Of a stretch of 64,000 nt of DNA, positions 1 to 60,986 are shown piece after piece. The position numbers and the translations under genes were made by a program. Positions within the stretch are counted from its first letter, which is position 1, and each line of letters opens with the position of its first letter. Source of the stretch: Minisyncoccota bacterium (GTDB taxonomy: Bacteria > Patescibacteriota > Minisyncoccia > Phycocordibacterales > GWA1-40-21); assembly GCA_041663045.1 (NCBI GenBank), contig JBAZRH010000002.1, forward strand, positions 7,179 to 71,178, given 5' to 3'. Below the pieces are notes generated by a model. The model made no database searches, was not told the origin of the DNA, and saw nothing but the letters and a program-made list of their open reading frames with translations.

Positions 1-16
1 CAAAAGAGAAGATAAA

Positions 17-40
17 CGCCCGCCGTAAGAACGGCGGGCG
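17..40 (-). terminator. Perfect GC hairpin (cgcccgccg / taagaa / cggcgggcg) followed by an A/T run; DGR VR-flanking hairpin and/or intrinsic terminator of target gene 1
   Basis: 9-bp all-GC stem with a 6-nt loop. An identical copy at 2810-2833 sits downstream of the second VR. The flanking sequence (aaacgcccgccgtaagaacggcgggcgcaaaaatcaa) is shared by both copies. Confidence 0.7.
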
Positions 41-50
41 CAAAAATCAA

Positions 51-119
51 ACCCCGTCAGAAGTCTTCAATGTTTTAATTTATCTTTAATCACTAAGCGC
101 GTTGGACTTCTGACGGGGT
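51..119. repeat. 69-bp palindromic insertion (15-16-bp perfect terminal inverted repeats accccgtcagaagtc ... gacttctgacggggt) between the VR1 stop codon and the conserved GC hairpin
   Basis: It is absent from the otherwise identical VR2 3' flank (2836-2842 joins caaaaatcaa directly to atctcgagg). It forms a long hairpin and creates the TAA stop of gene 119..970. Confidence 0.7.
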
Positions 120-970
120 TAAATCTCGAGGAGGACAACACGATAAGCGGCAAGCCATGAATCGCCTAGCCAGTCCGCACTGCGAAGCCAACCCGACCCG
201 TCCCAACGCGCAGACGGAACAAACCAGTCGCCGCCGGAACTGCGAACGAGGGAACCGGGAAAATAGAACCATACATCCGTATCTTTCAAAGAGGGTGGTG
301 TCTTGGTCGGGTTTTCAGTAAGCCATTTCCAATATTCCAAACCGGGGATGTGGTGGGTACCAGAGTAAGTATCCGCTAGATGCTTAAAGACATCACAGAG
401 TGGTCTGCCGACAAAGGAGGACAGGTCTGGGATAAAGATTTTGGATTCCTGAATATTTTCGAAATCTATATTCTGCATGTCTGGATTCAACATGTATTCG
501 CCGAATTTATCAGTATCGGTATCATCTTTTAGAGCGGTGTAGTCTTGGTCTTCTGGCTTGATTAGGGTGGGAACAAACCCTTTTTCTGGTTTTCCAAAAA
601 GTCCTTCCAAAATAGCTTTGTTTTGAGAATTGAGAGAAGTAATATCTGGGACAGATTCTTGAGGCAGATCTTTATCGCTTGATAGCATTTCTTTTATTTT
701 ATCTATTTGCTTGTCTGCCCGCAAAAGATCCTTTTGCATCTCTAATTTTCTTTTTTCTCCACTTCCTTCTGGTTCACCCTCTTTGTCATCAAAATCGCCT
801 TTCTCCAGCATGTCTTCATAAATATCTATCTGTTCCAAAGCATAAAGGCGAATATTCTCCATCCGTTCCGAAAGAGCTTGGCGAAGCTCTTCTTGAGTTT
901 TCTCTGGTCTTTGGGATTTTTCTGGAGATTTACGGCCTTTAGCCATCTGGTTTATAGCTTCAAAATTCAT
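119..970 (-). CDS. DGR target protein 1: coiled-coil/charged N-terminus plus C-terminal C-type-lectin/FGE-like variable domain (ends AAYRVVLLEI); no signal peptide
   Basis: The C-terminal roughly 150 aa is homologous to the C-terminus of the 2840..5218 product. The last about 45 codons form VR1 (122-258). Confidence 0.8.
   Translation of the reverse strand: MNFEAINQMAKGRKSPEKSQRPEKTQEELRQALSERMENIRLYALEQIDIYEDMLEKGDFDDKEGEPEGSGEKRKLEMQKDLLRADKQIDKIKEMLSSDKDLPQESVPDITSLNSQNKAILEGLFGKPEKGFVPTLIKPEDQDYTALKDDTDTDKFGEYMLNPDMQNIDFENIQESKIFIPDLSSFVGRPLCDVFKHLADTYSGTHHIPGLEYWKWLTENPTKTPPSLKDTDVWFYFPGSLVRSSGGDWFVPSARWDGSGWLRSADWLGDSWLAAYRVVLLEI
122..258 (-). repeat. DGR variable region VR1
   Basis: Differs from TR (2341-2468) at about 25 positions. 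Essentially all of them are positions where TR has A on the coding strand (AAT/AAC Asn codons in TR become S, D, F, R, L, G codons here). Confidence 0.85.
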
Positions 971-1039
971 ACTAATATGATAACAAATTTAAATATAATT
1001 TAACAGGGTATGATTATAATCTTATAACTCATGGTCTTA

Positions 1040-1899
1040 GATTGCCAATCTTTTCTAGCAAATCTGTCTTGATCTTGTGGGTATTTCCATAACTCAATAA
1101 CCCTAAATATGATAAAACCACTTCCTCCTTTGTATCGGGGAAAATGGCTTGATACATTCTTATTTTTGTCCTCGTCCGTAAGACTCAATATTTCTCAAAA
1201 TGTACCCAACCGAGAAAATCTATTCCAGAGCTCGCGGTTTTTATAAATACCTTGTCCGGATGTAATTCTAATTTTAAATTCTCTGCTAGAAATAATTTCA
1301 CCTTAGGTATCAAACCTTCAAGCCACAACTTATCTCTGCGGTATACCCTTGAGAAAACTGTCTATGACCGTATGAATGACCTGAATAAATCTCGGACATA
1401 CTATATGCCGATCGATTATCTTTTTTAAAATCTGATGGTCAATAGAAGCAAAACATTTTCTAATATCACCCTTCAATATCCAGACGGTTTTGGTATTATT
1501 TAAGCCTTCTTTTCTGACAAAAGACTTAAACCTAGCCAGTGCCCGATGCGTCCCCTTTTCCAGACGACAAGAATATGAATCAAAAATAAAAAATCGGTCA
1601 AAATATGGATATACTGCCCGATAAATAGCGTGATGGACTATTCTGTCTTTGACTGTCGCTTTATGAATATCCCGCAGTTTTGGCTCTCTGATTTGAAAAA
1701 ACTTATATCCTCCGTGGCGATAGGTGCCATTCATAATTTCCTCTTTTAAATCAAAGATACTTCCTGATAGGTTAAGAAAGAAATCCGCAACATCTGCCTT
1801 TTTCTTTTTGCCGTTTCTGAATTCTAACCAACTTCTCATCAGAGATTGATAAGAGAAAATCTCTTCAAACTTGCCAGTGTATGTTTTATCTTTATGCAT
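1040..1899 (-). pseudogene. DGR-type reverse transcriptase, disrupted (frameshifts plus internal deletion removing the motif 4/5 YxDD region)
   Basis: ORF 1330..1899 encodes RT motifs 1-3 (YRHGGYKFFQIREPKLRDI, DRIVHHAIY, FIFDSYSCRLEKGTHRALARF, LKGDIRKCFASIDH) and then stops at GIPQR. A second frame continues DKLWLEGL..LKLELHPDKVFIKTASSGIDFLGWVHF (motifs 6/7). A third frame gives SYLGLLSYGNTHKI (DGR RT C-terminal motif). No YxDD can be found. Confidence 0.7.
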
Positions 1900-1914
1900 T
1901 ATAATAGCTAAATT

Positions 1915-2340
1915 ATGAATATTAAAAAGAAATCATTTTTACCGCCAAAAAAATTATCAGGGATAACATCAAATCTACTGGAAGCTTATGTCTTCTGGCA
2001 AAGTAAGACCAAACATATCCCCAAGATGCTCCGCTATTCCATGGGTGTGCGGATTGATTCTATTTTTGCGGAAATGATAGAGACAGTTTACATCGCAATA
2101 TTTACTTCTCCAGAAAAGAGAGCCCTCTTGATAGATAAGGCTAATACCAGAAATGATTTACTCAAATTCATGCTCAATGTCTTGTTTGAACTAAAAGGTC
2201 TGAAAGAAGACGCCTTCAGTGAAATCTCATTGAAAATGGAAGAGATCGGCCGAGTGCTATACGGTTGGAGAAATCAAGTGGAAAGACAAAACCAAAACGG
2301 TTCGACAAAAGCCGAACCTATTGGAAATGATAAAAAGTAA
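1915..2340 (+). CDS. avd: Avd-like accessory variability determinant (four-helix-bundle protein)
   Basis: 141 aa. The pattern IPKMLRYSMGVRIDSIFAEMIETVYIAIF ... KFMLNVLFEL ... EEIGRVLYGWRNQV matches the Avd / 23S-IVS four-helix-bundle family. Its stop codon abuts the TR. Confidence 0.65.
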   Translation: MNIKKKSFLPPKKLSGITSNLLEAYVFWQSKTKHIPKMLRYSMGVRIDSIFAEMIETVYIAIFTSPEKRALLIDKANTRNDLLKFMLNVLFELKGLKEDAFSEISLKMEEIGRVLYGWRNQVERQNQNGSTKAEPIGNDKK

Positions 2341-2468
2341 CGAGGAGGACAACGCGATATTCGGCATTCCACGAATTGTCTAGCCAGTTCGCATTGCGAT
2401 TCCAATCCGACCCGTCCCAATTCGCATACGGCACATTCCAGTTGCCGTCGGAATTGCGAACGAGGGAA
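2341..2468 (-). repeat. DGR template repeat (TR)
   Basis: Coding-sense translation is SLVRNSDGNWNVPYANWDGSDWNRNANWLDNSWNAEYRVVLL, with 10 AAT/AAC codons. Both VRs differ from it only at its adenines. It is not in a credible gene (ORFs 2318..2548 and 2274..2504 are spurious readings of it). Confidence 0.85.
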
Positions 2469-2809
2469 CGATAGTGCAAAGGCCATCGAGTCCACTGCCA
2501 GCAAGAGGCCTTACCCAATTGTACCGGCTGAATATAATTTGGTATCATAATGCCCCAGTCTTTGCACAGATTTTTTATCTTTTTTCAGAATATGGAACAC
2601 ACTTTTCTTTGAAATTTCGCAGAAAATCCTGGCACCATATATCTCGACACTGCATCGTGAAAGATTCACTCCGTTAAAAGCTTTAGCAGGGTTAATCCCG
2701 CACGCATATTTGCAAGTGCCTAAACAATATAACATTATATCCCCACAATCCAAAAAAATTCGCAAAAACAAGAGAAATCAAAAAACAGAAAGGCAGAAGA
2801 GAAGACAAA

Positions 2810-2833
2810 CGCCCGCCGTAAGAACGGCGGGCG
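2810..2833 (-). terminator. GC hairpin identical to 17-40, immediately downstream of the VR2 stop codon; DGR homing-associated hairpin and/or terminator
   Basis: cgcccgccg taagaa cggcgggcg, placed 7 nt past the TGA of 2840..5218. Confidence 0.7.
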
Positions 2834-2839
2834 CAAAAA

Positions 2840-5218
2840 TCAAATCTCGAGGAGGACAACGCGATACGCGGCACTCCACGAATCGCCTAGCCAGCGCGCA
2901 CTGCGATACCAACCCGACCCGTCCCAAGACGCACACGGCACAATCCAGTAGCCGCCGGAATTGCGAACGAGGGAACCAAAGTTGAAGTAGTATTTGCCGT
3001 CTTTTAAATTCACTCCTTTTGCATCAGCTGGCACTTTGTCCGGATTTTCCAATATAAATTTCCAGTATTCAATGCCTGGTAGTCGGTATTTGTCTGAATA
3101 ATTGTCAATCAGGTGTTTTGCTACTTCCGAAAGTGGTTTACCGTTGAGAGCAGAAAGGTCGGGGACGAAGATTTTGTCTTTTAGAGACTCCCAGTCCAGA
3201 TTTTGAGTATCGGGATTTACAGTAAACTCACCAAATTTAGAGGTATCAATATCAGCTTTTCTGGCTTGATAGTCTTCGGTCTTCGGATCCATGATTATTG
3301 GTTCTATGGTAGTGTCTTTTATTTTCTCATCTGAAATACCCCACATTTTATATGTCTGCTCAAGGAAAGAGGTGAATTCGGTCTTGAGGGATTCGGAATC
3401 AAGAGTCTCCTGTTTTTTGTCTGGCTTGCCTTTTAATTTTCTCCTCATAGATTTACTGAAATTATCTCCCTTTTCGGCATTTTCATCTCCCAAAAGAGCT
3501 TCAGCTTTACCCTTCAATAATTCGGCTCGTTTATGAAACGGGTCAAGCTCGGCGACTTCTTTTAAGCTTAAGTGCTTAATGTCTCCTGATTTTTCTTTCA
3601 ATTCTTCAACCGCTTCTTCACCGCGCATTGCCTTGATAGTATTGAATTTAAAGACATCATCCGGCAAATCAAGCTCTTTTGCGGTGAGAGTGAGTAGGAA
3701 ACCTTTTGAGGCTAGAATCTTGGCAACTAAAATTCTATCTTCTTTGGTGTATTCTTTGAATGTGAGAGCTGTCTTGAATCTTTCGTCCAAAAACTCGGCA
3801 AATGTCCTGCCGTTTTTACCGGTCTGCTTTTCTACAAGCCAAGAAGAGAGGATCGCTTCCACCGAACCTTGAGTCATTACGAATTTCTTGAGTGAATACA
3901 CTTTCCCTGAAGCATCCATCGCACCGGCTTTTCTTGCCACTTCTTTGTCGGTTTCATTGGTATAAGACTCTTGTATATCTGCCATCGCCTTACAAAGGTT
4001 CGGCAAGGTGGTATTCAAATCATAATATGACATATCTAAAGAGCCATCTCTATTCAAAAGGCGAGCAAGCATAATATCATAAGCTTCGTCAGCTGGAGTA
4101 TATTTGACTTCTAAGTTGTTTTGCTCAAATTCGCGAGCGATTTCTGGCGGGAGATCTTGCCTTTCAGGATTCTTCTCGGATTTTAGGTTGGCTGTAAAGA
4201 CCATCTGAAAGCCTGGCTTGATTTCTACGACACCGTTTCCCACAATATTTATCCTATCACCGACTTTTGCATTAAAAACACCTTTGATAAAGACCATTTG
4301 CTCTTTTGGCAAAGCCGTGAATTCATCAAATATAACTGTCCTGCCTTCCATCATTGCTCTTGCAAGAGGTCCGTATATTTCGACGGTTTCTATCGCACCG
4401 TCTTTGGCTGGTCTTATACCTGTCTTGCCCCAGACATTGGATTCTTTTGTCTGTGGATTACAAAAGACCATCTCCGAATCTTTGCCAGTAAAATGCGATG
4501 ATGCAAACCTTGCAAGAGATGTCTTGCCTGTCCCCGTTGGCCCATGTAAGAATATCGGCTTTCCAGTAAGCATTCTGTCCCCTATTGCCTCCAAGGCTTT
4601 TTCTACTGTTGGAGTAACACAAATATGCCCGCTTTGACCAAGATCTTCTTTATATTCTATGAGCTCTGCCTTGCGAAGAGTAATCTGATCAGATTGTTCT
4701 AATCTGGCCTCACTGGCTTCAAGCTCTTCTTTGATTGTCTTGAGCACCGCTTCATTTCTCTTTCTTGTCGGCAAAGAAATCCTTTTATCCAAAATCTCCA
4801 ACATTCTTCGCATTCTAAAATCTTTTAAATCAGAAATATTCTCTACGGTCTTTAGGACATCTGCGATTTCTGGATTTTCCCCAAGTATCGCCTCTTGATC
4901 GATTTGTGAAGAGTTTTCTGCAAGGTTTCCTTCGTATTCTGTTTTCTGTTTTCTAAGGGCTTCTTTGGCACCCTTTAAACCACTATCTTCTGGGTTTGGA
5001 TTTTTCTTATCTTTAAAATCAGCAATCTTAAAAGCAGACGCCTTTTTATCTAAAGCTTCTTTTTCTCCTTTATAGTGCTTCTCAAAGATTTCAGTTTCAG
5101 GACTGCTTTCATCACCCTCTTTTATATCAAGTTCTTGAATTGCTTTCCTCAATTCTTTTCTTCCTTCAGAAATCTCATGAAAATTAGGTATCTTTTCCAT
5201 ATTTAGATTATAAAACAA
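2840..5218 (-). CDS. DGR target protein 2: AAA+ ATPase (AAA_5, MoxR/McrB-like) with C-terminal C-type-lectin/FGE-like variable domain; no signal peptide
   Basis: Walker A FLHGPTGTGKTSLARF, Walker B VIFDEFTAL, then QMVFTANL. N-terminal coiled coil. The C-terminal 150 aa is paralogous to the 119..970 product and ends ...SWDGSGWYRSARWLGDSWSAAYRVVLLEI. Confidence 0.85.
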   Translation of the reverse strand: MFYNLNMEKIPNFHEISEGRKELRKAIQELDIKEGDESSPETEIFEKHYKGEKEALDKKASAFKIADFKDKKNPNPEDSGLKGAKEALRKQKTEYEGNLAENSSQIDQEAILGENPEIADVLKTVENISDLKDFRMRRMLEILDKRISLPTRKRNEAVLKTIKEELEASEARLEQSDQITLRKAELIEYKEDLGQSGHICVTPTVEKALEAIGDRMLTGKPIFLHGPTGTGKTSLARFASSHFTGKDSEMVFCNPQTKESNVWGKTGIRPAKDGAIETVEIYGPLARAMMEGRTVIFDEFTALPKEQMVFIKGVFNAKVGDRINIVGNGVVEIKPGFQMVFTANLKSEKNPERQDLPPEIAREFEQNNLEVKYTPADEAYDIMLARLLNRDGSLDMSYYDLNTTLPNLCKAMADIQESYTNETDKEVARKAGAMDASGKVYSLKKFVMTQGSVEAILSSWLVEKQTGKNGRTFAEFLDERFKTALTFKEYTKEDRILVAKILASKGFLLTLTAKELDLPDDVFKFNTIKAMRGEEAVEELKEKSGDIKHLSLKEVAELDPFHKRAELLKGKAEALLGDENAEKGDNFSKSMRRKLKGKPDKKQETLDSESLKTEFTSFLEQTYKMWGISDEKIKDTTIEPIIMDPKTEDYQARKADIDTSKFGEFTVNPDTQNLDWESLKDKIFVPDLSALNGKPLSEVAKHLIDNYSDKYRLPGIEYWKFILENPDKVPADAKGVNLKDGKYYFNFGSLVRNSGGYWIVPCASWDGSGWYRSARWLGDSWSAAYRVVLLEI
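2843..2977 (-). repeat. DGR variable region VR2
   Basis: About 85% identical to TR, with mismatches confined to TR-adenine positions. It is the 3' end of the AAA+ ATPase gene. Confidence 0.85.
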
Positions 5219-11049: not shown

Positions 11050-11165
11050 TTTGTTCCGGCGACTAGCTACTTTTCCCACCGAAGTGAGTATCATTGCCTC
11101 AACAGGGCTTAACTTCTGAGTTCGGAATGAGATCAGGTGTGACCCCTGCGACGAATCACCAGAAC
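11050..11165 (-). rRNA. rrf: 5S ribosomal RNA
   Basis: The reverse complement contains cacctgatctcattccgaactcagaagttaagccc, matching the universal 5S CCGAACTCAGAAGTGAAAC region. Length is about 115 nt. Confidence 0.85.
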
Positions 11166-11254
11166 AAAATATTCGAATATTGTGAAAAATTAATCTCACA
11201 TAACAGGTTAAAACAATTGTGTATTTCTAAATTTCCTAATAAGAATCGGATAAT

Positions 11255-14800
<3,546 letters not shown>

Positions 14801-15113
14801 TAGGAAATTTAAAAACCACAATTATTCATCCGCCTACAAGACGGACAAATTTGTTTTAACCTGTTATGTAAAATCAATCGCGCAAAATGAATTATAAATA
14901 ATTCATCGCCCGACTCGTCACATAAACAGTATTTATATCTAACTATTTTCTTCAAGAAAAATAATTAGACTTACCTGCCTGTCTATAATATCTATAAAAG
15001 ACCCAAATCACCCTCTGGTGATAAATTGGTGATATTACGACAGCATGTGTCTCGATTAGAATGGTTATTTTATAACCTTTTTCTAACGAGAGTTATTTGT
15101 CAATTTACAATCT

Positions 15114-16008: not shown

Positions 16009-18807
16009 TTAAATTTTCGGCATGATAGGCGTTTCAATCTTAATTTCCGGTTTTCTATATTTCTGCATAATCTCCTCTTCTACAGAAACTCTGTCTTTAC
16101 CATATTTAAGATATGAAAGCTCTTTGACCTTGTCCAGTAAAATCTTGTTGCCTCTTGGCGGCATATTTGTCTCCATACTAAATGGTTTTACTGGTCTACC
16201 ATTTGCAAGTATCTTAACATAAGAATTATGATTATCAACATTCATTAAATCTTTTGCTGTGATAGTCGGTGTAAATTGTTTTTCCAAATACTCTGCGTCT
16301 TCCGAAGAAACACGGAATGCTGCCATAGAGCCAACGTTTCCAAATACAGAATTTTTAATCTTTTCTTCAAGCTGGGCGATGAATTGATGTGCCACAGTAA
16401 GAGAAAGTTTATATTTTCTAGCTTCAGACAAAATAGTAGATATAGAATCTGTCGTTACATTTTGAAACTCGTCTATGTAAAGATAAAAAGGTGGAAGATC
16501 TTCGCCGAATGTATCAGTACGAGAAAGTGCCGCCATTAAAATCTTTCCTACAATAATAAGACCGATAAGATTTGAATTAATATCTCCCAAGCGACCCTTG
16601 GCTAGATTAACAAGAAGGATTTTTTTATTATCCATGATCTCTCTAAAGTTGAAAGCGGATTTCTCTTGAGAAACTATCGGACGCATAATTTCATTTGAAA
16701 GGAAAATATCAAATTTGCTTGTGATATAAGGCACAATATTTGCAAGTGATGATTCCCCCCCTGCCTTCTCGGCGATCTCTTTCCAAAATTGGACGACTAT
16801 AGGATTTTTACATTTTGAAAGTTTGAGTTGTCTATATGTTTTATCTGCAAGCACTCTTGAAACATCAAGAAGAGTACAGCCTGTCTCTGGGTCTTCTATA
16901 ACAAGCATAACGGCATTTCTGAAATATTGTTCAAACATCGGACCTCCGGCCGTCTTCATATCAAAAAGTTTATTAAAAATAGACATCATTTCGTTTACAA
17001 CAAATGTCTTTTGTTCTGGGAATCTTAGATCGTATTCGAGCATATTAAGACCCATCGGCCTTGCCGTGTAACTTGGATCAAAATAGATTACATCTTCATA
17101 TCTTTCAGGTGGAATGTAAGAAAGAACTTCCTGAATGTCGGAACCATGTGGATCTATCATACAGACTCCTTCCCCAGCCAAAATATCCTGACGAATCATT
17201 GTCTTTAAAAGAGTCGTCTTACCTGTACCTGTTTGACCTATAACATAGAAATGTCTAAGGCGATCCTCTGGTGTTATATGTACTTCTGTATTTATATTTC
17301 TGTGTTTATTTACACCCAACAAAATACCATTCTCTGGCAAATCAAGTGGAGCTGGTGCGGTGCCAGCTTTTGTCTGTTTTAATTGTGTTGAACCCCTAAG
17401 CTCCGACTCTGGTAAATGCATTATTGTAGTAAGCTCTTTTAAATTTAAATCTTGTGAATAACTGTCTTTGAAAATTCTGAAAGAAAAATCTTGGCTCATT
17501 CTTGCCAGATCTCTCCCTAAGACTCTATTAAATCTAAATTTATTTCCGTTTGTATTCTCAAATTGATTGAAGGCAGACTCAATATCAGCAATAATAGCCC
17601 CTGCCTCCTCAGTCGTCCTAGCCGAAGCCAAAATCCTTATATTTACACTTGCAAGTTGGCTACTAATCTTATTTTTTATATTATCTATCGCTGTTTGATC
17701 TGGAATCTTCGGTTTGTTTTCACCATCTTTCTTTTCATCGCTCTTTCCAAAAAGCTCTTTCCCGACAGATTTAACACTAGCCCACAAAGAACTGTCCGAT
17801 TTCTCCAAAGCTATTTTAAACTTTTCCCCTTTTTCCATCTCCTTCAACACTCGTTTATAAAAACCTGCCTTAGAAGGATCAGCTGGCTTTACAATAATCT
17901 GTACTGAGGCTCCCTCGCCATCTTTGTCTACTTTAGAAAAGCTATTTATGAGAACGTTCAGTGGATCATAATCATACTGCTCATAAGTCTTTAGTGGGAA
18001 AATATCATTGGTGGAGAGTTCGGCGTATGAACCGACAAAGCTGCCCTGTTCATTAAAAATATTATAATCGTCTTTCTTTTCTAGAATCTTTGCTTCCGGG
18101 AAAATCGAGAGAATCTGCTTTTCAAATAAAGTAATCTTCTGATCTGGAACCGCCATATAGAATATTATTTCATTACTATGATTTGCATTTGTAAGCTCCA
18201 ACACAAAATAGCCAGAATTCGTTGTGTCTATATCTCTTACTGAAAACATACCTGAGAAGAATTGTTCCATCTTTGAGACAAGTTCCTTCAGATTCTTCGC
18301 TTTCTGATTTTCTTCTTTATCAGTATTCGGCAAAGATACTTCAAAGAGAGTCATCTTCAAAGCCTTAAATACTGGGCTTTTTTCGTCCTTATTATTTGAA
18401 AGAAGTCCAGCTTTTATATATTGAACCAGGAATCTGTGGAAATCATCTTCAATATGTGGGTCTTTCATGCGATCGACTACAGACAACGTATTCAAAATCC
18501 CTTTTTCTTGGAGTAAGACAACGAGTTCTTCCATTTTTGAGTCATGCACTTCTGGTGTAAGGTTTAAGACAATAGACTCTACTTCTTTCGGCTTAAGAAC
18601 ATAATCAGGATGTAAAATATCTTCTGGACTTCTATCTTTATGCTCATCAAGCTCTCCTCTTACAACCTCTTCTCTCGTAGTTAATTCACCATTTTCGGCT
18701 ATCTCTTTCTCCTTTTTCAAGACTTCTGAACGCAGAAAGACTAATTCTTCTTGCGGATTAGTAAACTTTTTCTGAGGATTTTCAATTTGGCCGTAATTTT
18801 CTGACAT
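16009..18807 (-). CDS. HerA/DUF87-like P-loop ATPase (FtsK/HerA superfamily) with about 470-aa N-terminal extension
   Basis: Walker A VIGQTGTGKTTLL, an IDPHGS motif, Walker B LYIDEFQN, and a HerA-like EARKYKLSLTVAHQ segment. No TM helices. Confidence 0.55.
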   Translation of the reverse strand: MSENYGQIENPQKKFTNPQEELVFLRSEVLKKEKEIAENGELTTREEVVRGELDEHKDRSPEDILHPDYVLKPKEVESIVLNLTPEVHDSKMEELVVLLQEKGILNTLSVVDRMKDPHIEDDFHRFLVQYIKAGLLSNNKDEKSPVFKALKMTLFEVSLPNTDKEENQKAKNLKELVSKMEQFFSGMFSVRDIDTTNSGYFVLELTNANHSNEIIFYMAVPDQKITLFEKQILSIFPEAKILEKKDDYNIFNEQGSFVGSYAELSTNDIFPLKTYEQYDYDPLNVLINSFSKVDKDGEGASVQIIVKPADPSKAGFYKRVLKEMEKGEKFKIALEKSDSSLWASVKSVGKELFGKSDEKKDGENKPKIPDQTAIDNIKNKISSQLASVNIRILASARTTEEAGAIIADIESAFNQFENTNGNKFRFNRVLGRDLARMSQDFSFRIFKDSYSQDLNLKELTTIMHLPESELRGSTQLKQTKAGTAPAPLDLPENGILLGVNKHRNINTEVHITPEDRLRHFYVIGQTGTGKTTLLKTMIRQDILAGEGVCMIDPHGSDIQEVLSYIPPERYEDVIYFDPSYTARPMGLNMLEYDLRFPEQKTFVVNEMMSIFNKLFDMKTAGGPMFEQYFRNAVMLVIEDPETGCTLLDVSRVLADKTYRQLKLSKCKNPIVVQFWKEIAEKAGGESSLANIVPYITSKFDIFLSNEIMRPIVSQEKSAFNFREIMDNKKILLVNLAKGRLGDINSNLIGLIIVGKILMAALSRTDTFGEDLPPFYLYIDEFQNVTTDSISTILSEARKYKLSLTVAHQFIAQLEEKIKNSVFGNVGSMAAFRVSSEDAEYLEKQFTPTITAKDLMNVDNHNSYVKILANGRPVKPFSMETNMPPRGNKILLDKVKELSYLKYGKDRVSVEEEIMQKYRKPEIKIETPIMPKI

Positions 18808-28303: not shown

Positions 28304-29782
28304 CTATGGAGATACCGCACACTGACTAGTACCCGAGTCACAAAAGTTAGAAGCACAACTTGCATTATTGAAACAATAAGCACCTATAGCTCCATCAGTA
28401 CATACGTAATCGGCACTACCTCCGCAATATAGATTTGATTGACAATCGCTTGTCTGTGTACATACACCTCCTAAGGGTACGAGGGCTGCGGCACAAACGC
28501 TACCACTACAGTTTTCTGATTGACATTGATTATTGGCAGAGCAGGAACCTCCGACTGGTTTGAATCCTCGGGTATAAATATCTAATATCTCGTCTGCGGT
28601 GAGGGCGCGGGACCAGATGGCAATATCGGCCATACTACCGGTGAGATACCCACTGAAACTCCCTGGATTTCCAGCAACTCCAAAATGGATTACTCCAGTA
28701 TAAGTCGTGGCTACTGTTTGATTTACTGTCTCTATAAATACTCCGTCAAGATAAACATCCATGTGTTGGTTGTCTCGATAATTTACTGAAATAAGGTGCC
28801 ATGTATTATCCGACATATTTGGATGCGTGCTTATTGCAGAACACGAAACCCACACTTTACAAATCACTGCTTGGAGAGTACTGCCCGTGTAAGATATACC
28901 AGATTGAAGACTCCCGCTACTGGCTGGATTGTAAAAACCGAGCAAATTAGTGTTAGCGACAGAAAGACTGCTTTTATTGAACCAAAAACTAACGGAGTGA
29001 CTGTTAGCTGAAGAAAGAGATACCTGGCTTGAATCAAAAACACTTGTCCCATCAAAACTCCCCGCCTGTGCACCATTGAAACCGTTTGTATATGTCCCTG
29101 TCCACGTCCCATCATTGCCATTCCCCGATGAATCTGTGGAATCTCCATTTAGCTTCCACCAACCTACAAGAGCAGGATCGGTGTAGGGATCAATATATGT
29201 CCCTGCCACTCCCATATATGTTGTCCCTGAGTTGATATTGGCTGCATTTAGAGTTGCTTTGAATGCTACCAGGGCATCATAGATTTCTGTAATGGAGTAC
29301 ATAGTAGCGTTGACTGCATTACTTGTGGTAAGGGTATGGGAGGAGGAAAGGACTCTGGTATAGGGTGATACTGCAAGGTTGTAAATGTCTGCTAGAGAGT
29401 AGCCTGTGGCTGTACCTTGGTCTGTGGTGGGGTAGAGAGAAGAGGAGGAAGCAGAGACTGTCGTAGGAACAGCATCGCCTGATGTTATACCTAAGTAAGT
29501 AGTGCCTGATTTAATATTGTTGGGATTTATGAGATTGGCTAAGAGAGCGTAGATTTCTCCAATAGAGTGGGAGGTAGTAGCTGTAGCTTCTGTAGTAGTA
29601 GAGAGTGTGTGATTACCTGCTGTGGCTTCAGTACCTGCGGTTAATATATTGTAGAGGTCGTTGAGAGTGTAAGATGTGGGAAGGGGGGTGGCAGAAGGGG
29701 TGAGAGAGCCAGCTATAACTACGACAGTGAGAATACCGAGGGAGAAGAGAGTATAAAGAAGTGTACGTTTAAATTTAGGCAT
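28304..29782 (-). CDS. Secreted/membrane-anchored LamG (concanavalin-A-like lectin) domain protein with Cys-rich C-terminal repeats, inserted inside the ribosomal-protein operon
   Basis: N-terminal hydrophobic anchor, three IY-repeat motifs, and a LamG signature LVGWWKLNGDSTDSSGNGNDGTWTG...FDGTS...SFWF...MADIAIWSRALTADEI. The C-terminus carries 14 Cys in C-x5-C-x3-C-type spacing. Confidence 0.7.
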   Translation of the reverse strand: MPKFKRTLLYTLFSLGILTVVVIAGSLTPSATPLPTSYTLNDLYNILTAGTEATAGNHTLSTTTEATATTSHSIGEIYALLANLINPNNIKSGTTYLGITSGDAVPTTVSASSSSLYPTTDQGTATGYSLADIYNLAVSPYTRVLSSSHTLTTSNAVNATMYSITEIYDALVAFKATLNAANINSGTTYMGVAGTYIDPYTDPALVGWWKLNGDSTDSSGNGNDGTWTGTYTNGFNGAQAGSFDGTSVFDSSQVSLSSANSHSVSFWFNKSSLSVANTNLLGFYNPASSGSLQSGISYTGSTLQAVICKVWVSCSAISTHPNMSDNTWHLISVNYRDNQHMDVYLDGVFIETVNQTVATTYTGVIHFGVAGNPGSFSGYLTGSMADIAIWSRALTADEILDIYTRGFKPVGGSCSANNQCQSENCSGSVCAAALVPLGGVCTQTSDCQSNLYCGGSADYVCTDGAIGAYCFNNASCASNFCDSGTSQCAVSP

Positions 29783-33722: not shown

Positions 33723-35276
33723 TTATTCAATATCATAAAAAACTTTTGCCAACACCTTTACACCCCAGACTGGCAAACCAAAAAACTTCCTCCAAAAACC
33801 ACCGGTTGAGCTCGCTTCGTCAAAAGTAGACACCGCCTCGGCAACAGAAGCCACTTGGATATTCTTTATTGAAGGAATGTCCCCGTCCGGCTTAGATGGT
33901 GATTTAGGCCCTGTATTGATATCTTTATTAACAGCCATTTGAGATGCAAAAACTCTCTTAAACTCTGTAATAAAATCATCCGCTTGTGCTTTTGTTATTT
34001 CAACGTCATCAGACTTGGTCTTAGTATCAATCGATATTTGTGATGAGGTTGCAACCGTAATCGATGAACTAATTTTAGAGATTAAGGAGCCAGATGGATC
34101 AAAAAGTGATATAACAATATTTCCAGAATCCACTCTTGAATAATCTTTTGAAATTACCACCTCCTTCCCTGCTCCTATAATAGTATCTTCTGGTATTTCA
34201 AAACTTCCCGAATCTCCGCGTACCTTCCAGTCACCAAGATTTATCTCTGTCTTGCCCATATTTGAAAATCTTAAATCACCAGATGGGAGATAAGAAAAGG
34301 CGATTTCTGGTCTTAATATCTTAACAACCGTCCTAGAAACAGAATTCCTTGTCCCACAAGAGCCGTTTAAGACAATATTATATTCACCGGGGTATATATA
34401 TGTATGATTCACTTCTGAACCAATATTTTTGGTCCCATCTCCGAAAGACCAAGAAAAGGTTGGCGTTCCACATTCTGAGACTTTAGAAGTCTTATATTTT
34501 GCCAAGAATTTTATAGGCGTACCGACATAGGACACTCTTTCTCTGCCTGCTGAAATATCGAATGTTGAATTTTCTTCATAATCACTCAATTCTTCTGGAC
34601 TTGAATGTACAGAAACATATCTTATAGCGGTCTTTGTGATTGTTTGTGTACTCTGATTTGTATTGCTTGTGCTCGTCGAAGTCTCTTTTTCAGTATTCTC
34701 TGTTGTAGTTGCAACATTTTCTGTGGTAGTAGCGTTTTCAGAAGCAGTATTTTCTGCGCCAGGAGTCGGGATAGCAGAAATCCATACGCCATTAACCTTT
34801 TGCAATGATTTACCGTCTCCTTTCGCCCCAATAGAGATATCATAATTTACAGAATCCACTATTGTCCCCGCTTCATTTTTCAACGACAATAACTCGCCTT
34901 CATTGCTAAGAGAAAAAGTACTATCAAAAAGTAAACCGTTATAATCTGGAAAGTTAGTTCTAAATTTTGAAGGATTATCCGCAATAACAGCATAACCTAT
35001 AGAACCTAAAATACTGTTGCCGTCTGAAGCAATTACTCCGTGATTAGTATTAGCCTCAGAAAGTTTAACTTTTGTAATATCTAAGTCCTCATTACTAGAG
35101 TTAAATACTTCTATCCATTCTCTGTCTGTATCTGACCCATCTACATCATACATAATTTCATTAATTTGAAGAGTGGCCGACACATGTCGGGCAAATGAAA
35201 AACCAGTCAATATTAAAATCATAATAATGAAGAATCTACTATATCTTTTGGGCATAATTGAGAAACATTTTACCAC
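33723..35276 (-). CDS. Secreted lamin-tail-domain (LTD) protein
   Basis: Signal anchor, then LQINEIMYDVDGSDTDREWIEVFNSSNEDLDI (LTD signature), a T/S/N-rich linker, and a beta-rich C-terminal domain. Confidence 0.65.
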   Translation of the reverse strand: MVKCFSIMPKRYSRFFIIMILILTGFSFARHVSATLQINEIMYDVDGSDTDREWIEVFNSSNEDLDITKVKLSEANTNHGVIASDGNSILGSIGYAVIADNPSKFRTNFPDYNGLLFDSTFSLSNEGELLSLKNEAGTIVDSVNYDISIGAKGDGKSLQKVNGVWISAIPTPGAENTASENATTTENVATTTENTEKETSTSTSNTNQSTQTITKTAIRYVSVHSSPEELSDYEENSTFDISAGRERVSYVGTPIKFLAKYKTSKVSECGTPTFSWSFGDGTKNIGSEVNHTYIYPGEYNIVLNGSCGTRNSVSRTVVKILRPEIAFSYLPSGDLRFSNMGKTEINLGDWKVRGDSGSFEIPEDTIIGAGKEVVISKDYSRVDSGNIVISLFDPSGSLISKISSSITVATSSQISIDTKTKSDDVEITKAQADDFITEFKRVFASQMAVNKDINTGPKSPSKPDGDIPSIKNIQVASVAEAVSTFDEASSTGGFWRKFFGLPVWGVKVLAKVFYDIE

Positions 35277-53812: not shown

Positions 53813-55732
53813 TTATTTCACCACCTTACCAGAATCTGAAGAATATTCCGGGTCACTCTTTGTGCCTGTCGTAACTGTCGCTCCATCTGCCCCAACTATA
53901 GTATTCGTAAATGTGTCAGTACCACTAAGCTCCACATTTTCTATAAGAGAAGGTTCACTTCCTACCTGACTCAAGCTTGGCGTTATAGAAACATTAAACG
54001 AAACTTCTCGTGAAGGAGATGTAAATCCCGCCCCAGCACCAATGTTTCCTATATTCCATATCACTCGCCCACTCTCTTGATCAAAAGATATATCTTCAGA
54101 AGATGGACTCGTCAGATTGTTCCATTTGATATAGTTTGGAAGTTGTCCTGTTACTTTCACACCACCAACGTCATTCAAAGAGTCCGTAACTGTCCAAATA
54201 ATAGTATAAGTTGTCTCTTGTTCAGCTTTCGGCGGGATAGGACCACTGTTTTCAAAAGGCCCCATCGATCTATACCCATTTGATACGATTCTTATGTCTG
54301 AGATTATTTTTACCCTCTTTGAATCAGAATACAGGAGCTCTTGTGGGACGCTCGCCCCCTGCACTCTCTTGCCTATTACACTTACATCCATGTAAATATC
54401 TGGGTTGGTAAAAGCAGATCCTGTCTTTGTCTGAGAGCTAAAAGAAGAGAAATTAAAAGATAATTCCCCCCCTGCCCCAGGAGCAATAGACGCCAGTGAT
54501 TCATTTGATGTTTTATCAAAAGTAATTAAATTATCAAGAGAATTATAAAAACCGTTTTGAACTTGAATGCTCGATTTATTCAATATGCCCCCTCTTAGCT
54601 TTATCTGAACAGAGACATCATATACTTGGCTTGGAAGATTGTTCTGCCAATAGATGTCTGCACGTGTTTGCTGACCGCTTTGTATTGCTACTTCTCGAGC
54701 ATTGTTTCCATTTATGGCAAGATTTATACCAATAAACGGTTTCTTGATTGAAACAGTACTTGAATACGCAGAAAATATAGTACCTATACTTCTCGTATCC
54801 AACTTGTCTGGCGTCCCTACAGTAAACTTAAATACTCTCTGTTCACCATCTTGGCCCTGAACCTTTCCAGATATCTTTACTATCCTTTTTTCACCTGGAG
54901 AAAGATCGCCAATATTCCAAACACTACTATCAAGTGAAGATGCTTGTGGAGAAGCAGATATAAAATCAAAACCAAAAGGATAGTCTGCCTTGAGCATCAA
55001 GTTTTTTATCACACTGAGAGAATTTGAGGAAATTTCAACATTAAAATCAAGCTTTTGATTTGAATTTATCTCATCAACACCGGTAACTTTCAAATTTACA
55101 GGAGCAGAACTTACGAGCACTGTGTATGTCTTTTCTTTATAGAAAATCGCATTTGAACCAGGGACTCTGTATTCAACAGTAAGTTTTATATCTCTTTGTG
55201 TATTTTCTTCACCAAAAATAACAGCTTTTATCAACCGCCTCTCGCTCTTACCGACATTTATATCGCCGAGAACTTCGCTGTATCTTGTGAGTGGAGTTGA
55301 AAGATCATCGGGGCTTCTCGTACCGTCTGGATATGCGATTTTTAAATCGACAACCTGAAGATTTACATTATTTTTGTTTTGAACTTCAATATCAAGAGGT
55401 AAGGTATCACCACCGGCGACAGAGACAGGGCCTCTTATCAGAATATCTATATTGTCCCCAGATATTAGATTACCACCAGCAAAAAATTTAAATGTGGCAA
55501 AACCAGCCGCCAGTACAAAGAAAATAAAGGTACCGAGAAGAATCTTAGTAAAAGGAAATTTAAAGTCTGACTCTTTATTCAGATCAGTGTTAGACCAATC
55601 AGTACTGACTCTTTCTATTCTTGGCTTCAAATCATGCCTTCTCTTGGCGACTACAGCGTCTACGTTTTGAGAATAAAGAGCTTCTTTTACCTCCTCTATC
55701 TTGTCTTTTTTATTTTCATCTTGCTCAAACAT
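53813..55732 (-). CDS. Hypothetical large membrane-anchored extracytoplasmic protein
   Basis: 639 aa with one TM helix near residue 65 and a beta-rich remainder. Confidence 0.4.
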   Translation of the reverse strand: MFEQDENKKDKIEEVKEALYSQNVDAVVAKRRHDLKPRIERVSTDWSNTDLNKESDFKFPFTKILLGTFIFFVLAAGFATFKFFAGGNLISGDNIDILIRGPVSVAGGDTLPLDIEVQNKNNVNLQVVDLKIAYPDGTRSPDDLSTPLTRYSEVLGDINVGKSERRLIKAVIFGEENTQRDIKLTVEYRVPGSNAIFYKEKTYTVLVSSAPVNLKVTGVDEINSNQKLDFNVEISSNSLSVIKNLMLKADYPFGFDFISASPQASSLDSSVWNIGDLSPGEKRIVKISGKVQGQDGEQRVFKFTVGTPDKLDTRSIGTIFSAYSSTVSIKKPFIGINLAINGNNAREVAIQSGQQTRADIYWQNNLPSQVYDVSVQIKLRGGILNKSSIQVQNGFYNSLDNLITFDKTSNESLASIAPGAGGELSFNFSSFSSQTKTGSAFTNPDIYMDVSVIGKRVQGASVPQELLYSDSKRVKIISDIRIVSNGYRSMGPFENSGPIPPKAEQETTYTIIWTVTDSLNDVGGVKVTGQLPNYIKWNNLTSPSSEDISFDQESGRVIWNIGNIGAGAGFTSPSREVSFNVSITPSLSQVGSEPSLIENVELSGTDTFTNTIVGADGATVTTGTKSDPEYSSDSGKVVK

Positions 55733-60400: not shown

Positions 60401-60986
60401 CGCATTGTGGGCAGAGATGCATAGATTTAAAACCCTCGTAAACTAGCCCTTTTTCTTGTAGTTTTTTGAAAGCCCACCAAACACTTTCTGTGTATGAAGA
60501 ATCCATCGTCCTGTAATCATTTTCCATATCCACAAAACGCCCCATTCTCGGAACAATTTTCTTCCAATCATTTACATAAGTAAAAACTTTTGATCGCGCA
60601 AGATCATTAAATTTCTCCAAACCAAAATCTTCAATATCTTTTCTTGATTTGAGGCCGATTTCTTCCTGAACAATATTTTCCACCGGCAATCCGTGGCAAT
60701 CCCAACCCCAACGCCTCGGCACGTGGTATCCGCGCATAGTTTTATATCTACCGACAAAGTCTTTCATCGTGCCGGCAAGAATATGTCCAAAATGTGGAAG
60801 ACCTGTGGCAAATGGAGGTCCGTCATAGAAAACATACTCGCCTTTCGGCGCTTCTTTTTCCAGAGTCTTTTCGAAAATTTTATTTTCCTGCCAGAATTTC
60901 AGGACTTCTTCTTCTTTCAATGCGAGCTTAGATTTATCACTAGCCTTTTGAGCTTTATCTTCGCCCATCGCTTTATTCACTTTCAT
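57450..60986 (-). CDS. ileS: Isoleucyl-tRNA synthetase with an inserted histidine-phosphatase (RHG / PGM-like) domain
   Basis: HIGH motif (PHFGH), KMSKS, editing domain, and Zn knuckles (CYRC, CNKC, CAC). Between CNKC and the DVWFDSG-equivalent (EVFDCWFESG) lie about 210 aa. This insert carries FVVRHGEAESN near its start and LIVSHNTPI near its end, the two catalytic-His motifs of the histidine phosphatase superfamily. Confidence 0.8.
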   Translation of the reverse strand: MKVNKAMGEDKAQKASDKSKLALKEEEVLKFWQENKIFEKTLEKEAPKGEYVFYDGPPFATGLPHFGHILAGTMKDFVGRYKTMRGYHVPRRWGWDCHGLPVENIVQEEIGLKSRKDIEDFGLEKFNDLARSKVFTYVNDWKKIVPRMGRFVDMENDYRTMDSSYTESVWWAFKKLQEKGLVYEGFKSMHLCPQCGTTLSNFEVSQGYKDITDISVTAKFELLDEPQTFFLAWTTTPWTLPGNVALAVNPDIEYVKIKMGEENYILAESRLGIIKEPYEILEKVSGKKLVGKSYKPLFDYYNNDKLKNKENGFKVYGADFVTTEDGTGIVHIAPAFGEDDMNLGREKKLPFIQHVGMDGAFKHEVKDFSGQVKPKEDPQKADIEIIKYLAKAGTIFSKEKFTHSYPHCYRCDTPLINYASSSWFVEVTKIKSDLIKANQEIKWVPPEIGEGRFGKWLEGARDWAISRSRFWGAPLPVWRCNKCEGKIFVGSIDDIKKKTTRDNRFFVVRHGEAESNVLGILSSNPKTQHHLTDNGREQAKEAGENLKKSKTDIDIIYCSPFLRTKETAEIIADGIGYSKDKIVYDSRLHEIFVGVLDGKPDAEYQAFFESREAKFWKTPEGGENYMAVKKRMTDFLYEINQKHEGKKILIVSHNTPIWLMFGGAVGMTPKELMAVREAGKPFVYNGEVKELQFAPIPHNRNHELDLHRPFIDELEMACACGDKMRRIPEVFDCWFESGSMPYAESHYPFGDLKKFNPEKGIGYPADFIAEGLDQTRGWFYSMLVLSVALFGEASYKNVVVNGIVLAEDGQKMAKRLKNYTAPMLLVDKYSADAMRYYLLSSPVIKAQDLYFSDKGVDEVVKKVIMRLQNVYSFYEMYTENEKRKTKSEKQETKNILDKWVLARLKETALQMTNSTEKYELDRATWPINDFVEDLSTWYLRRSRDRFKSDDLADRDSAIATTKEVILTLSKLIAPSMPFLAEDLYKKIGGEKLSVHLDSWPEEYVVELSQEEKDILATMSLARSYVNMALMKRAELGIKVRQPLARLTIKHSLKKPNFWDEVSPIIRDEVNVKEVVLDENISQDGAPFELDTNITPELKEEGMMRDIVRSIQELRKESKLNPNDIVGLVVDTDEVGKKILEKYSAEIKKVTGLKDIKFGEVKDGKEVVIEGMKMTIKIN

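What the first reader, a model, noticed from the sequence alone, without database searches (positions are those of the whole stretch)
2840..5218. DGR-diversified lectin-fold sensor fused to a cytoplasmic AAA+ (MoxR/McrB-like) ATPase
The larger target is a 792-aa protein with no signal peptide. It has an N-terminal coiled coil and a canonical AAA_5 ATPase (GPTGTGKT, hhhhDEF, MVFTANL) before the variable C-type-lectin domain. The small paralog (119..970) shares only the variable C-terminal roughly 150 aa. A hypervariable ligand-binding module on an intracellular mechano-ATPase suggests a programmable intracellular recognition machine, for example defence or quality control. It is unlike the classic secreted DGR targets (phage tail fibres, adhesins).
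Basis: partly seen in the sequence, partly recalled or inferred. Interest (0 to 1): 0.85.

Follow-up and report, generated by a model that had tools for sequence, protein, structure and literature searches.

The report
CPR retroelement target: ATPase with variable tip
This gene encodes a cytoplasmic motor ATPase with a retroelement-diversified binding domain on its tail; the type is already known to be common in ultra-small (CPR) bacteria, it is paired with a vWA/protease-like partner gene, and in this genome the diversifying enzyme is broken.

Summary
ORF 2840-5218 (-) has an AAA_5/MoxR ATPase core and ends in a DGR variable region (VR2, 2848-2976). All 16 differences from the template repeat (2341-2469) sit at template adenines. 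There is no signal peptide or membrane segment. A 283-aa paralogue shares only the C-terminal ~155 aa.

AAA-ATPase/C-type-lectin fusions are reported as the commonest DGR target architecture in CPR bacteria (Paul 2017, as cited by Doré 2024; Wu 2018). The protein belongs to a large Patescibacteria-only family.

What I add:
- In 23 of 25 informative family loci it sits beside a ~650-aa partner with an invariant HExxH motif and a vWA/MIDAS domain. In this genome that partner lies two genes beyond the window's left edge.
- No third conserved component exists.
- The local reverse transcriptase is a pseudogene: a 122-nt deletion removes YADD, and there is also a stop codon. The variable regions here are therefore frozen.

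Best reading: the sensor and motor half of a MoxR-vWA pair. New member of a known kind; moderate interest.

The parts
2840..5218 (-). Large DGR target gene: MoxR-class AAA+ ATPase with a C-terminal variable domain. 792 aa from TTG 5218; the annotated start is Met7 at 5200, giving 786 aa.
   Evidence: ORF. Pfam AAA_5 at 47 bits. 100% match to NCBI MFA6227275.1, 'AAA family ATPase [Ca. Paceibacterota]'. AF2 model pLDDT 83.9.
4619..5218 (-). N-terminal ~200-aa all-helical extension of unknown role. It is conserved in the family (NFHE motif, R20, DLKDFRM).
   Evidence: Model helices H13-196. Family alignment A2. No Pfam match.
3839..4621 (-). AAA+ module, about aa 200-460. Walker A is at 4520-4543, Walker B at 4319-4339, and sensor-1 is N344. 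The model shows a helix-2 beta-hairpin insert (aa 264-282) and a pre-sensor-1 hairpin (aa 322-332).
3419..3838 (-). Strongly conserved helical domain after the AAA+ lid (about aa 460-600). Function unknown; it is a candidate partner-binding region.
   Evidence: Near-invariant columns across 55 homologues. Model helices H473-576.
2843..3400 (-). C-terminal module (aa 607-792): one helix followed by a divergent C-type-lectin-like domain that carries the VR.
2848..2976 (-). VR2, the variable region of the large target.
   Evidence: 16 of 16 mismatches to TR fall at TR adenines. There are 16 variable codons, about 1e15 possible variants.
2809..2834 (-). GC hairpin (10-11 bp stem, 4-nt loop) 8 nt after the VR2 stop codon. 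It could be the DGR target-recognition hairpin, a terminator, or both.
   Evidence: Repeat D2. Fold z-score -6.5. Terminator-like by consensus scan.
2341..2469 (-). Template repeat (TR), rich in AAY (Asn) codons.
   Evidence: It is the only TR in the 64-kb window.
1915..2340 (+). Avd accessory gene, on the opposite strand between TR and RT. This is the arrangement Wu 2018 call B3, typical of CPR.
   Evidence: Pfam bAvd 31 bits (below the cut-off of 40) and NCBIfam DivGenRetAVD 37 bits (below 80). 76% identical to the Avd of L002. NCBI name: 'four helix bundle protein'.
1035..1899 (-). DGR reverse transcriptase pseudogene. A 189-aa N-terminal ORF (1330-1899) ends at GIPQR*. A 122-nt deletion between 1338 and 1337 removes LGNLTSQ...YIRYADDFV and shifts the frame. 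There is a further in-frame TGA at 1185-1187.
   Evidence: tblastn against intact RTs from L002 and L004. DNA alignment. The same truncated ORF appears in an independent Logan assembly.
119..970 (-). Small DGR target 1 (283 aa). Its own N-terminal ~130 aa are followed by the same CLec-like module.
   Evidence: The conserved small-target family is seen next to many family loci.
127..255 (-). VR1.
   Evidence: 19 A-site and 3 non-A mismatches to TR.
50..120 (-). ~71-nt perfect inverted-repeat insertion between the VR1 stop codon and its GC hairpin. It is absent at VR2.
16..41 (-). Second copy of the GC hairpin, belonging to VR1.

Best explanation
**What it is (shown).**
- The 792-aa protein belongs to the known, Patescibacteria-wide family of cytoplasmic DGR targets in which a MoxR-class AAA+ ATPase carries a C-terminal, adenine-mutagenised, lectin-like ligand-binding domain.
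- Its conserved functional partner is a ~650-aa protein with an N-terminal zincin-like HExxH domain and a C-terminal vWA domain with an intact MIDAS motif.
- In this genome the partner is encoded two genes beyond the window's left edge. The order is: AAA-CLec, TR, avd, RT pseudogene, small target 1, PemK toxin, HExxH-vWA, small target 2.
- No third conserved component exists.
- The local RT has lost its catalytic box, so the three VRs are frozen products of past diversification.

**How it probably works (inferred from the MoxR-vWA paradigm: NorQ-NorD, CbbQ-CbbO, RavA-ViaA, midasin).**
- The ATPase forms a hexamer that displays six copies of one variable binding surface.
- A cytoplasmic ligand is captured by that surface.
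- ATP hydrolysis is coupled through the vWA/MIDAS partner to remodelling of the bound ligand or its handover to the partner's metallopeptidase-like domain, or to activation of that domain.
- DGR activity, while present, retunes specificity. Free small CLec paralogues may act as soluble co-receptors or decoys.
- The biological role is most likely recognition of fast-evolving foreign or host-derived proteins (conflict or symbiosis), not housekeeping.
For: **Identity.**
- AAA_5 at 47 bits.
- NorQ is the best PDB profile hit.
- Catalytic residues are invariant across 55 homologues.

**Family.**
- More than 286 homologues carry PF07728, all named ones from Patescibacteria MAGs.
- 175 clusters at 50% identity have E <= 1e-30.

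**DGR.**
- A-specific TR/VR mismatches.
- In eight natural variants of homologue P0095, residues 1-708 are invariant and every difference lies in 709-741.

**Partner.**
- Of 25 loci with at least 6.5 kb downstream, 23 have the VWA protein, 21 an RT and 18 an Avd.
- Clustering of 40 loci finds only AAA/CLec, VWA, RT and Avd as recurrent components.
- The partner has invariant H79-E80-x-x-H83 and MIDAS D444/S446/S448/T532/D567.
- The only PDB sequence match of its N-terminal domain is the minimal metallopeptidase selecase MJ1213, E = 1.2e-3, with HExxH aligned.
- In this genome the accessions are consecutive: MFA6227269 (small target 2), 270 (VWA), 271 (PemK), 272 (small target 1), 274 (Avd), 275 (AAA), 276 (epimerase). 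All lie on one 295,149-bp contig.

**Cytoplasmic location.** No TM or signal-like segment in either protein family.

**RT pseudogene.**

**Prior literature** proposing an ATPase-as-transducer role.
Against: - No experiment or expression data exist for any member.
- The zincin assignment rests on an invariant HExxH plus one marginal profile hit. No structure was predicted for the partner.
- PADLOC finds no defence family. Flanking genes are mostly housekeeping and vary between loci, so guilt by association does not support a defence role.
- Several family loci keep AAA-CLec and VWA but have lost or truncated the RT (L018, L026, L030, L088). Continuous diversification is therefore not essential to whatever the pair does.
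- Hexamer formation and a physical AAA-vWA interaction are assumed from homologues, not tested.
Confidence: 0.55

Rival explanations
1. Housekeeping MoxR chaperone. The pair matures or assembles one specific cellular complex, as NorQ/NorD, CbbQ/CbbO and RavA/ViaA do. The lectin-like domain is merely a substrate adaptor whose past diversification is incidental.
For: The closest structures are maturation chaperones. Neighbours are housekeeping genes. The pair persists after RT loss in several loci.
Against: DGR linkage is strong: 21 of 25 loci have an RT, and natural populations show VR-restricted variation. A fixed client would not select for about 1e15 binding variants. Two unrelated VR domain classes are swapped onto the same ATPase body. 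No conserved client gene is found nearby.
Confidence: 0.2
2. Decaying relic. In this particular genome the cassette is non-functional debris of a once-active element and the 792-aa protein no longer does anything.
For: The RT has a 122-nt deletion and a stop codon. VR1 has 3 non-A substitutions and a 71-nt insertion separating it from its hairpin. A PemK toxin gene is inserted in the cassette.
Against: The 792-aa ORF, both small targets, Avd and the 685-aa vWA partner are all intact. Every invariant catalytic residue is retained. VR2 has no non-A change, so the loss is recent. Relatives keep target and partner without an RT.
Confidence: 0.15
3. Surface or host-attachment protein. The variable domain acts outside the cell in episymbiotic attachment, exported by a non-classical route.
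For: Classic DGR targets are surface or tail-fibre proteins. CPR bacteria are thought to be epibionts, and Paul 2017's abstract (recalled from memory; the paper could not be read) lists attachment among possible roles.
Against: There is no signal peptide or TM segment in this protein, in 54 of 55 homologues, or in any of 27 partners. An AAA+ motor needs cytoplasmic ATP. The N-terminus is highly charged.
Confidence: 0.06
4. McrBC-like restriction NTPase with a variable DNA or target reader.
Against: NorQ and CbbQ score higher. The conserved neighbour is a vWA protein, not McrC or a nuclease. In McrB the reader domain is N-terminal (my knowledge). PADLOC gives no McrBC-type hit.
Confidence: 0.03

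Closest known systems
CPR/Patescibacteria DGR variable proteins with an AAA ATPase fused to a CLec domain (Paul et al. 2017, as cited in Doré 2024; Wu et al. 2018 category g1 / UVR4 'Midasin' targets)
   Same: Same architecture, same phylum-level host range, and the same cassette layout with avd inverted between TR and RT. The window protein is one of more than 286 homologues.
   Different: Nothing essential. Here the RT is a pseudogene and there are three targets. The vWA partner described here is not mentioned in any paper I could read, and Paul 2017 itself could not be read.
MoxR-vWA chaperone pairs: NorQ-NorD, CbbQ-CbbO, RavA-ViaA, CoxD-CoxE, midasin
   Different: Compared with the ~260-aa NorQ/CbbQ, this protein has an extra 200-aa helical N-terminus, an extra conserved helical domain, and a DGR-variable C-terminal domain. 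The partner carries an HExxH domain. No known client.
VMAP/MoxR-vWA ternary conflict systems with DGR-diversified FGS(CLec) domains (Kaur et al. 2020; Doré et al. 2024)
   Same: The same parts list: a MoxR ATPase, a vWA protein, a peptidase-type domain, a DGR and a CLec sensor. Often there is one long and one short CLec target.
   Different: There the CLec is fused to the vWA protein and a third VMAP component exists. Here the CLec is fused to the MoxR ATPase, the peptidase-like domain is on the vWA protein, and no third component is conserved. According to Doré 2024, most CPR DGR RTs form clade 2, distant from the clade 5 RTs of the ternary systems; the RT clade of this family was not tested here.
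STAND NTPase-CLec DGR targets of multicellular bacteria (Doré et al. 2024)
   Same: A cytoplasmic NTPase with a C-terminal DGR-variable CLec, proposed to be an intracellular antigen sensor.
   Different: A different NTPase class: STAND (NACHT/nSTAND1) rather than a MoxR AAA+. There are no N-terminal effector domains here.
McrB (GTPase subunit of McrBC)
   Same: AAA_5 superfamily core.
   Different: Lower structural score. No McrC partner. The reader domain is at the opposite end of the protein.

Membership tests
Diversity-generating retroelement (DGR) cassette | TR/VR pair whose differences fall at TR adenines | tested here: met
   VR2 16/16, VR1 19/22 and VR3 (L090) 16/18 mismatches at A. For VR2, P is about 1.4e-11.
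Diversity-generating retroelement (DGR) cassette | Intact reverse transcriptase with a catalytic YxDD box | tested here: not met
   A 122-nt deletion removes LGNLTSQ...YADDFV, and there is also an in-frame TGA. The same lesion is seen in an independent assembly. Family relatives have intact 295-333-aa RTs. This locus is therefore an inactivated DGR unless an RT acts in trans.
Diversity-generating retroelement (DGR) cassette | Avd accessory protein | tested here: inconclusive
   bAvd scores 31 bits (cut-off 40) and DivGenRetAVD 37 bits (cut-off 80). Position and 76% identity to the Avd of an intact relative support it.
Diversity-generating retroelement (DGR) cassette | GC-rich hairpin just 3' of the VR (target recognition element) | tested here: met
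   A 10-11 bp GC stem with a 4-nt loop follows all three VRs. Function was not tested, and it could equally be a terminator.
MoxR-class AAA+ ATPase (Pfam AAA_5) | AAA_5 profile above the gathering score, with Walker A, Walker B, sensor-1 and a conserved lid Arg | tested here: met
   47 bits against 22. GPTGTGKT, VIFDEF and N344, R386 are invariant.
MoxR-class AAA+ ATPase (Pfam AAA_5) | Helix-2 insert and pre-sensor-1 beta-hairpin; closest fold is MoxR proteins | tested here: met
MoxR-class AAA+ ATPase (Pfam AAA_5) | Genomically coupled vWA (MIDAS) partner | tested here: met
   23 of 25 informative loci. In this genome the accessions are consecutive, with the partner two genes beyond the window. 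MIDAS residues are invariant.
MoxR-class AAA+ ATPase (Pfam AAA_5) | Hexameric, ATP-hydrolysing | not testable with these tools
   Needs biochemistry or a multimer prediction.
C-type-lectin-fold DGR variable domain | CLec/FGE-sulfatase fold with the VR forming the binding face | tested here: inconclusive
VMAP ternary conflict system (Kaur 2020) | A third VMAP component alongside MoxR and vWA | tested here: not met
   Clustering of ORFs around 40 loci finds no recurrent family beyond AAA/CLec, VWA, RT and Avd; the next family occurs in only 6 loci.
McrBC restriction system | McrC-type nuclease partner | tested here: not met
   The conserved neighbour is a vWA protein. There is no PADLOC McrBC hit.
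Known anti-phage defence systems (PADLOC) | Match to a defence-system protein model | tested here: not met
   Only generic P-loop matches (mad8 at 21 bits), and nothing for the partner.

The most novel reading that the evidence does not exclude
The CPR AAA-CLec targets are not stand-alone sensors. They are the sensor and motor half of a previously undescribed binary machine. A MoxR ATPase carrying a DGR-programmable receptor works with an HExxH-peptidase-vWA partner, forming an ATP-driven, retargetable intracellular recognition-and-proteolysis (or remodelling) system. It is widespread in Patescibacteria, acquires extra free CLec paralogues, and stays in use after the RT is lost.
Probability: 0.3. 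Interest if true: 0.7.

Novelty: new member of a known kind. Interest (0 to 1): 0.4.

Why it matters
DGR targets in CPR bacteria are abundant, yet their function is unknown. Roux 2021 explicitly leaves open whether they are genuine non-membrane-bound targets.

Three results turn a vague 'intracellular sensor' idea into a testable two-protein hypothesis:
- the ATPase is MoxR-class;
- it is almost always paired with an HExxH-vWA protein;
- there is no third conserved partner.

The hypothesis can be tested by co-expression, ATPase assays, binding assays and HExxH mutants. The results also link the CPR elements mechanistically to the MoxR-vWA conflict systems of multicellular bacteria.

For this window specifically, the practical message is caution. 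The cassette looks like a live diversifier, but its RT is dead.

Tried and rejected
- **Reaching beyond the window's left edge by metagenome scans.** An exact 55-nt pattern found nothing, and neither did the small-target protein. The question was solved instead through the contig length of a partner homologue and consecutive NCBI accessions.
- **vWA homologue inside the window.** tblastn found none in 64 kb.
- **Sequence-level identification of the C-terminal domain.** Pfam, NCBIfam, PHROGs and a PDB profile search at E <= 10 all returned nothing. Foldseek against PDB returned nothing significant.
- **Defence annotation via PADLOC.** Only generic P-loop noise.
- **Pfam on the partner's N-terminal 430 aa.** Nothing, even at E <= 1 across 27 members.
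- **Reading Paul et al. 2017.** Not held under PMC id or PubMed id. The supplement of Wu 2018 is not held either. The prior-art statement therefore rests on how Doré 2024 and Wu 2018 describe it.
- **Alternative genetic code as the cause of the short RT ORF.** Rejected, because the alignment shows a clean 122-nt deletion and other ORFs are long under table 11.
- **Additional TR or VR copies in the window.** None found.
Full report

Yes. The minus strand of window 1-5218 carries a DGR cassette. Its parts are:
- a large target ORF (2840-5218);
- a GC hairpin (2809-2834);
- the template repeat (2341-2469);
- an inverted avd gene (1915-2340, + strand);
- a reverse-transcriptase gene (about 1035-1899);
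- a small target (119-970), with a second copy of the hairpin (16-41).

The TR has 27 adenines in 129 nt. VR2 (2848-2976) differs from it at 16 positions, all at TR adenines, giving P of about 1.4e-11. VR1 (127-255) has 19 A-site and 3 other differences. Sixteen codons are variable, about 1e15 possible proteins.

The quoted ATPase motifs are in the translation. Pfam AAA_5 matches aa 222-347 at 47 bits against a cut-off of 22. The small paralogue shares 58% identity over the last ~155 aa only.

Hydropathy shows no signal-like N-terminus and no TM segment. The same holds for 54 of 55 homologues. The true start is probably Met7, giving 786 aa as annotated by NCBI.

**2. What kind of ATPase is it?**

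An AlphaFold model built on 55 homologues (pLDDT 83.9) shows a classic AAA+ core with a beta-hairpin insert in helix 2 (aa 264-282) and a pre-sensor-1 hairpin (aa 322-332).

Walker A, Walker B, sensor-1 N344 and R386 are invariant in the family. The enzyme is therefore MoxR-class and looks catalytically competent. 'McrB-like' is not the best description.

Around the ~260-aa core lie a 200-aa helical N-terminus and a strongly conserved helical domain (aa 460-600). Neither has a detectable relative.

**3. The variable domain.**

No HMM library recognises it. A family profile finds nothing in the PDB even at E = 10.

I therefore call it lectin-like and very divergent, with moderate confidence.

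**4. The family, and whether it is actively diversified.**

The protein has more than 286 close homologues. All carry PF07728, and all named ones come from Patescibacteria MAGs. There are 175 clusters at 50% identity with E <= 1e-30.

Two unrelated VR-domain classes (ending ...RVVLLE or ...LGVRPSRCFF) are found on the same ATPase body. This shows modular exchange of the variable domain.

Eight natural variants of homologue P0095 from different samples are identical over residues 1-708. They differ only within 709-741, the VR. This is direct evidence that the family is diversified in nature.

**5. The conserved partner.**

I fetched 64 genomic loci for the family plus several metagenomic ones.
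- Of 25 loci with at least 6.5 kb of sequence downstream, 23 encode a 600-715-aa VWA-domain protein within about 3.6 kb. Twenty-one encode an RT and 18 a detectable Avd.
- An all-against-all clustering of ORFs around 40 loci finds only four recurrent families: AAA/CLec targets, the VWA protein, RT and Avd. There is no VMAP-like third component.

The partner has these features:
- an invariant H-E-x-x-H;
- further invariant residues D117, N118, D122 and H161;
- a complete MIDAS motif, DxSxS...T...D;
- no export signal.

The only PDB sequence match of its N-terminal domain is the minimal metallopeptidase selecase (MJ1213), at E = 1.2e-3 with the HExxH aligned. The zincin assignment is suggestive, not proven.

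**6. Is the partner present in this genome?**

It is not in the window. However, a 685-aa homologue (P0368) lies on a contig of exactly the same length (295,149 bp) and sources as the window protein.

A Logan contig from the same sample (L090) reads: PemK-like toxin, VWA, a 285-aa third small target with its own VR (16 A-site and 2 other mismatches to the window's TR), and the same GC hairpin. Its first 33 nt copy the sequence that follows the post-VR hairpin repeat.

NCBI protein accessions settle the matter:

| Accession | Product |
|---|---|
| MFA6227269 | small target 2 |
| MFA6227270 | VWA partner |
| MFA6227271 | PemK toxin |
| MFA6227272 | small target 1 (window 119-970) |
| MFA6227274 | Avd |
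| MFA6227275 | AAA ATPase |
| MFA6227276 | epimerase |

The numbers are consecutive. The partner therefore sits two genes beyond window position 1.

**7. The cassette here is no longer a diversifier.**

Compared with the intact RT of the closest relative (L002, 83% identical), the window's RT has a clean 122-nt deletion between positions 1338 and 1337. The deletion removes LGNLTSQ...YIRYADDFV, including the catalytic box, and shifts the frame. There is a further in-frame TGA at 1185-1187. An independent assembly of the same sample has the same 189-aa ORF.

VR2 carries no non-A change, so the loss is recent. VR1 has three non-A changes and a 71-nt inverted-repeat insertion between its stop codon and its hairpin.

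RT loss or truncation with retention of target and vWA recurs in the family: L018, L026, L030 and L088. One protein (P0006) is found both with and without the Avd-RT-NYN-VWA block in different samples.

**8. Mechanism.**

*Shown:*
- a cytoplasmic MoxR-class ATPase with a DGR-variable C-terminal domain;
- obligate genomic pairing with an HExxH-vWA(MIDAS) protein;
- extra free copies of the variable module.

*Inferred from the MoxR-vWA paradigm summarised by Kaur et al. 2020:*
- the ATPase forms a hexamer presenting six identical variable sites;
- the vWA/MIDAS partner docks on it and on an extended peptide;
- ATP hydrolysis remodels the captured ligand or hands it to the partner's peptidase-like domain, or activates that domain.

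A role in conflict (against phage, or with the host cell of an epibiont) is the most economical reason for hypervariability. It lacks independent support: PADLOC is negative and the neighbourhoods are mostly housekeeping and variable. TA/Abi genes (PemK here; AbiEii and NYN in L085) appear only sporadically.

**9. Comparison with what is known, and novelty.**

The fusion itself is prior art.
- Doré et al. [quoted passage not shown] They suggest the ATPase transduces signals sensed by the C-terminus.
- Wu et al. 2018 list CPR targets with P-loop NTPase/Midasin-AAA domains, and note the CPR-typical cassette layout.
- Roux et al. 2021 leave open whether CPR targets are genuinely non-membrane proteins.

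The system resembles the DGR-linked MoxR-vWA ternary conflict systems of cyanobacteria and gammaproteobacteria (Kaur 2020; Doré 2024), but it fails membership. Here the CLec is on the MoxR protein, not the vWA protein, and there is no VMAP. Doré 2024 also place most CPR DGR RTs in clade 2, distant from the clade 5 RTs of the ternary systems; I did not test the RT clade of this family.

I found no paper in the searchable library that describes the vWA/HExxH partner of the CPR family. I could not read Paul 2017, so I do not claim priority for it.

**10. Verdict.**
- Observation: confirmed.
- Interpretation: partly supported, but already published in outline.
- This locus: a new member of a known kind, with a dead RT.
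- The added family-level result (binary MoxR-CLec / HExxH-vWA pairing) gives a concrete, testable mechanism and justifies moderate interest (0.4).

Noticed in passing
window 1035-1899 (deletion between 1338 and 1337; TGA at 1185-1187): The DGR reverse transcriptase is a pseudogene. A clean 122-nt deletion removes the YADD catalytic box and shifts the frame, and there is a later nonsense codon. An independent Logan assembly (L084) shows the same lesion.
   Followed up: yes
window 50-120: A ~71-nt element with 15-19-bp perfect terminal inverted repeats sits between the VR1 stop codon and its GC hairpin, and supplies the TAA stop. It is absent at VR2 and has no other copy in the window. It may uncouple VR1 from its retrohoming hairpin.
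   Followed up: partly
just left of window position 1 (L090:115-3582; NCBI MFA6227269-271): The cassette continues outside the window: a PemK/MazF-family toxin gene, the 685-aa HExxH-vWA partner, and a third 285-aa CLec target. VR3 of that target shows 16 A-site mismatches to the window's TR and is followed by a third copy of the GC hairpin.
   Followed up: yes
L085 vs L087 (same 771-aa protein P0006): Presence/absence polymorphism. One sample has Avd-RT-NYN-VWA-AbiEii after the target gene. Another has the identical target gene followed directly by the downstream AbiEii genes, so about 5 kb of cassette is missing.
   Followed up: partly
family alignment A2 (e.g. P0018-P0030 vs the window protein); L003:14247-15269: Two unrelated C-terminal variable-domain classes (...RVVLLE and ...LGVRPSRCFF) occur on the same conserved ATPase body, and also on the small free targets. 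This implies recombinational swapping of VR modules.
   Followed up: partly
window 11233-14804: The 23S rRNA match spans 3572 nt against a 2925-position model. About 650 nt of insertion (an intron or expansion, as is common in CPR) must be present. A 5S rRNA follows at 11054-11163.
   Followed up: no
window 57450-60986: A class-I aminoacyl-tRNA synthetase (1178 aa; tRNA-synt_1 plus Anticodon_1) has a complete histidine-phosphatase (His_Phos_1) domain inserted at aa 506-672. This is an unusual fusion or insertion.
   Followed up: no
window 16009-18807; 28304-29782; 33723-35276; 53813-55732: A VirD4/TraG-like type IV coupling ATPase (932 aa) and several large putative surface proteins (Laminin_G_3, LTD+PKD, DUF11) lie in the same window. 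They may be relevant to an epibiotic lifestyle.
   Followed up: no
window 2299-2318: A further 8-bp hairpin followed by a T-run lies immediately 3' of the TR on the minus strand, overlapping the avd 3' end on the other strand. It could be part of the TR-RNA structure or a terminator.
   Followed up: no
L001 (ends at window 2815), L084 (window 2779-22), and many genome contigs: Independent assemblies break exactly at the VR/hairpin repeats. Many family contigs in public MAGs end at about residue 600-620 of the target, so the VR domain and the cassette are systematically lost from MAGs. This will bias DGR surveys of CPR genomes.
   Followed up: partly
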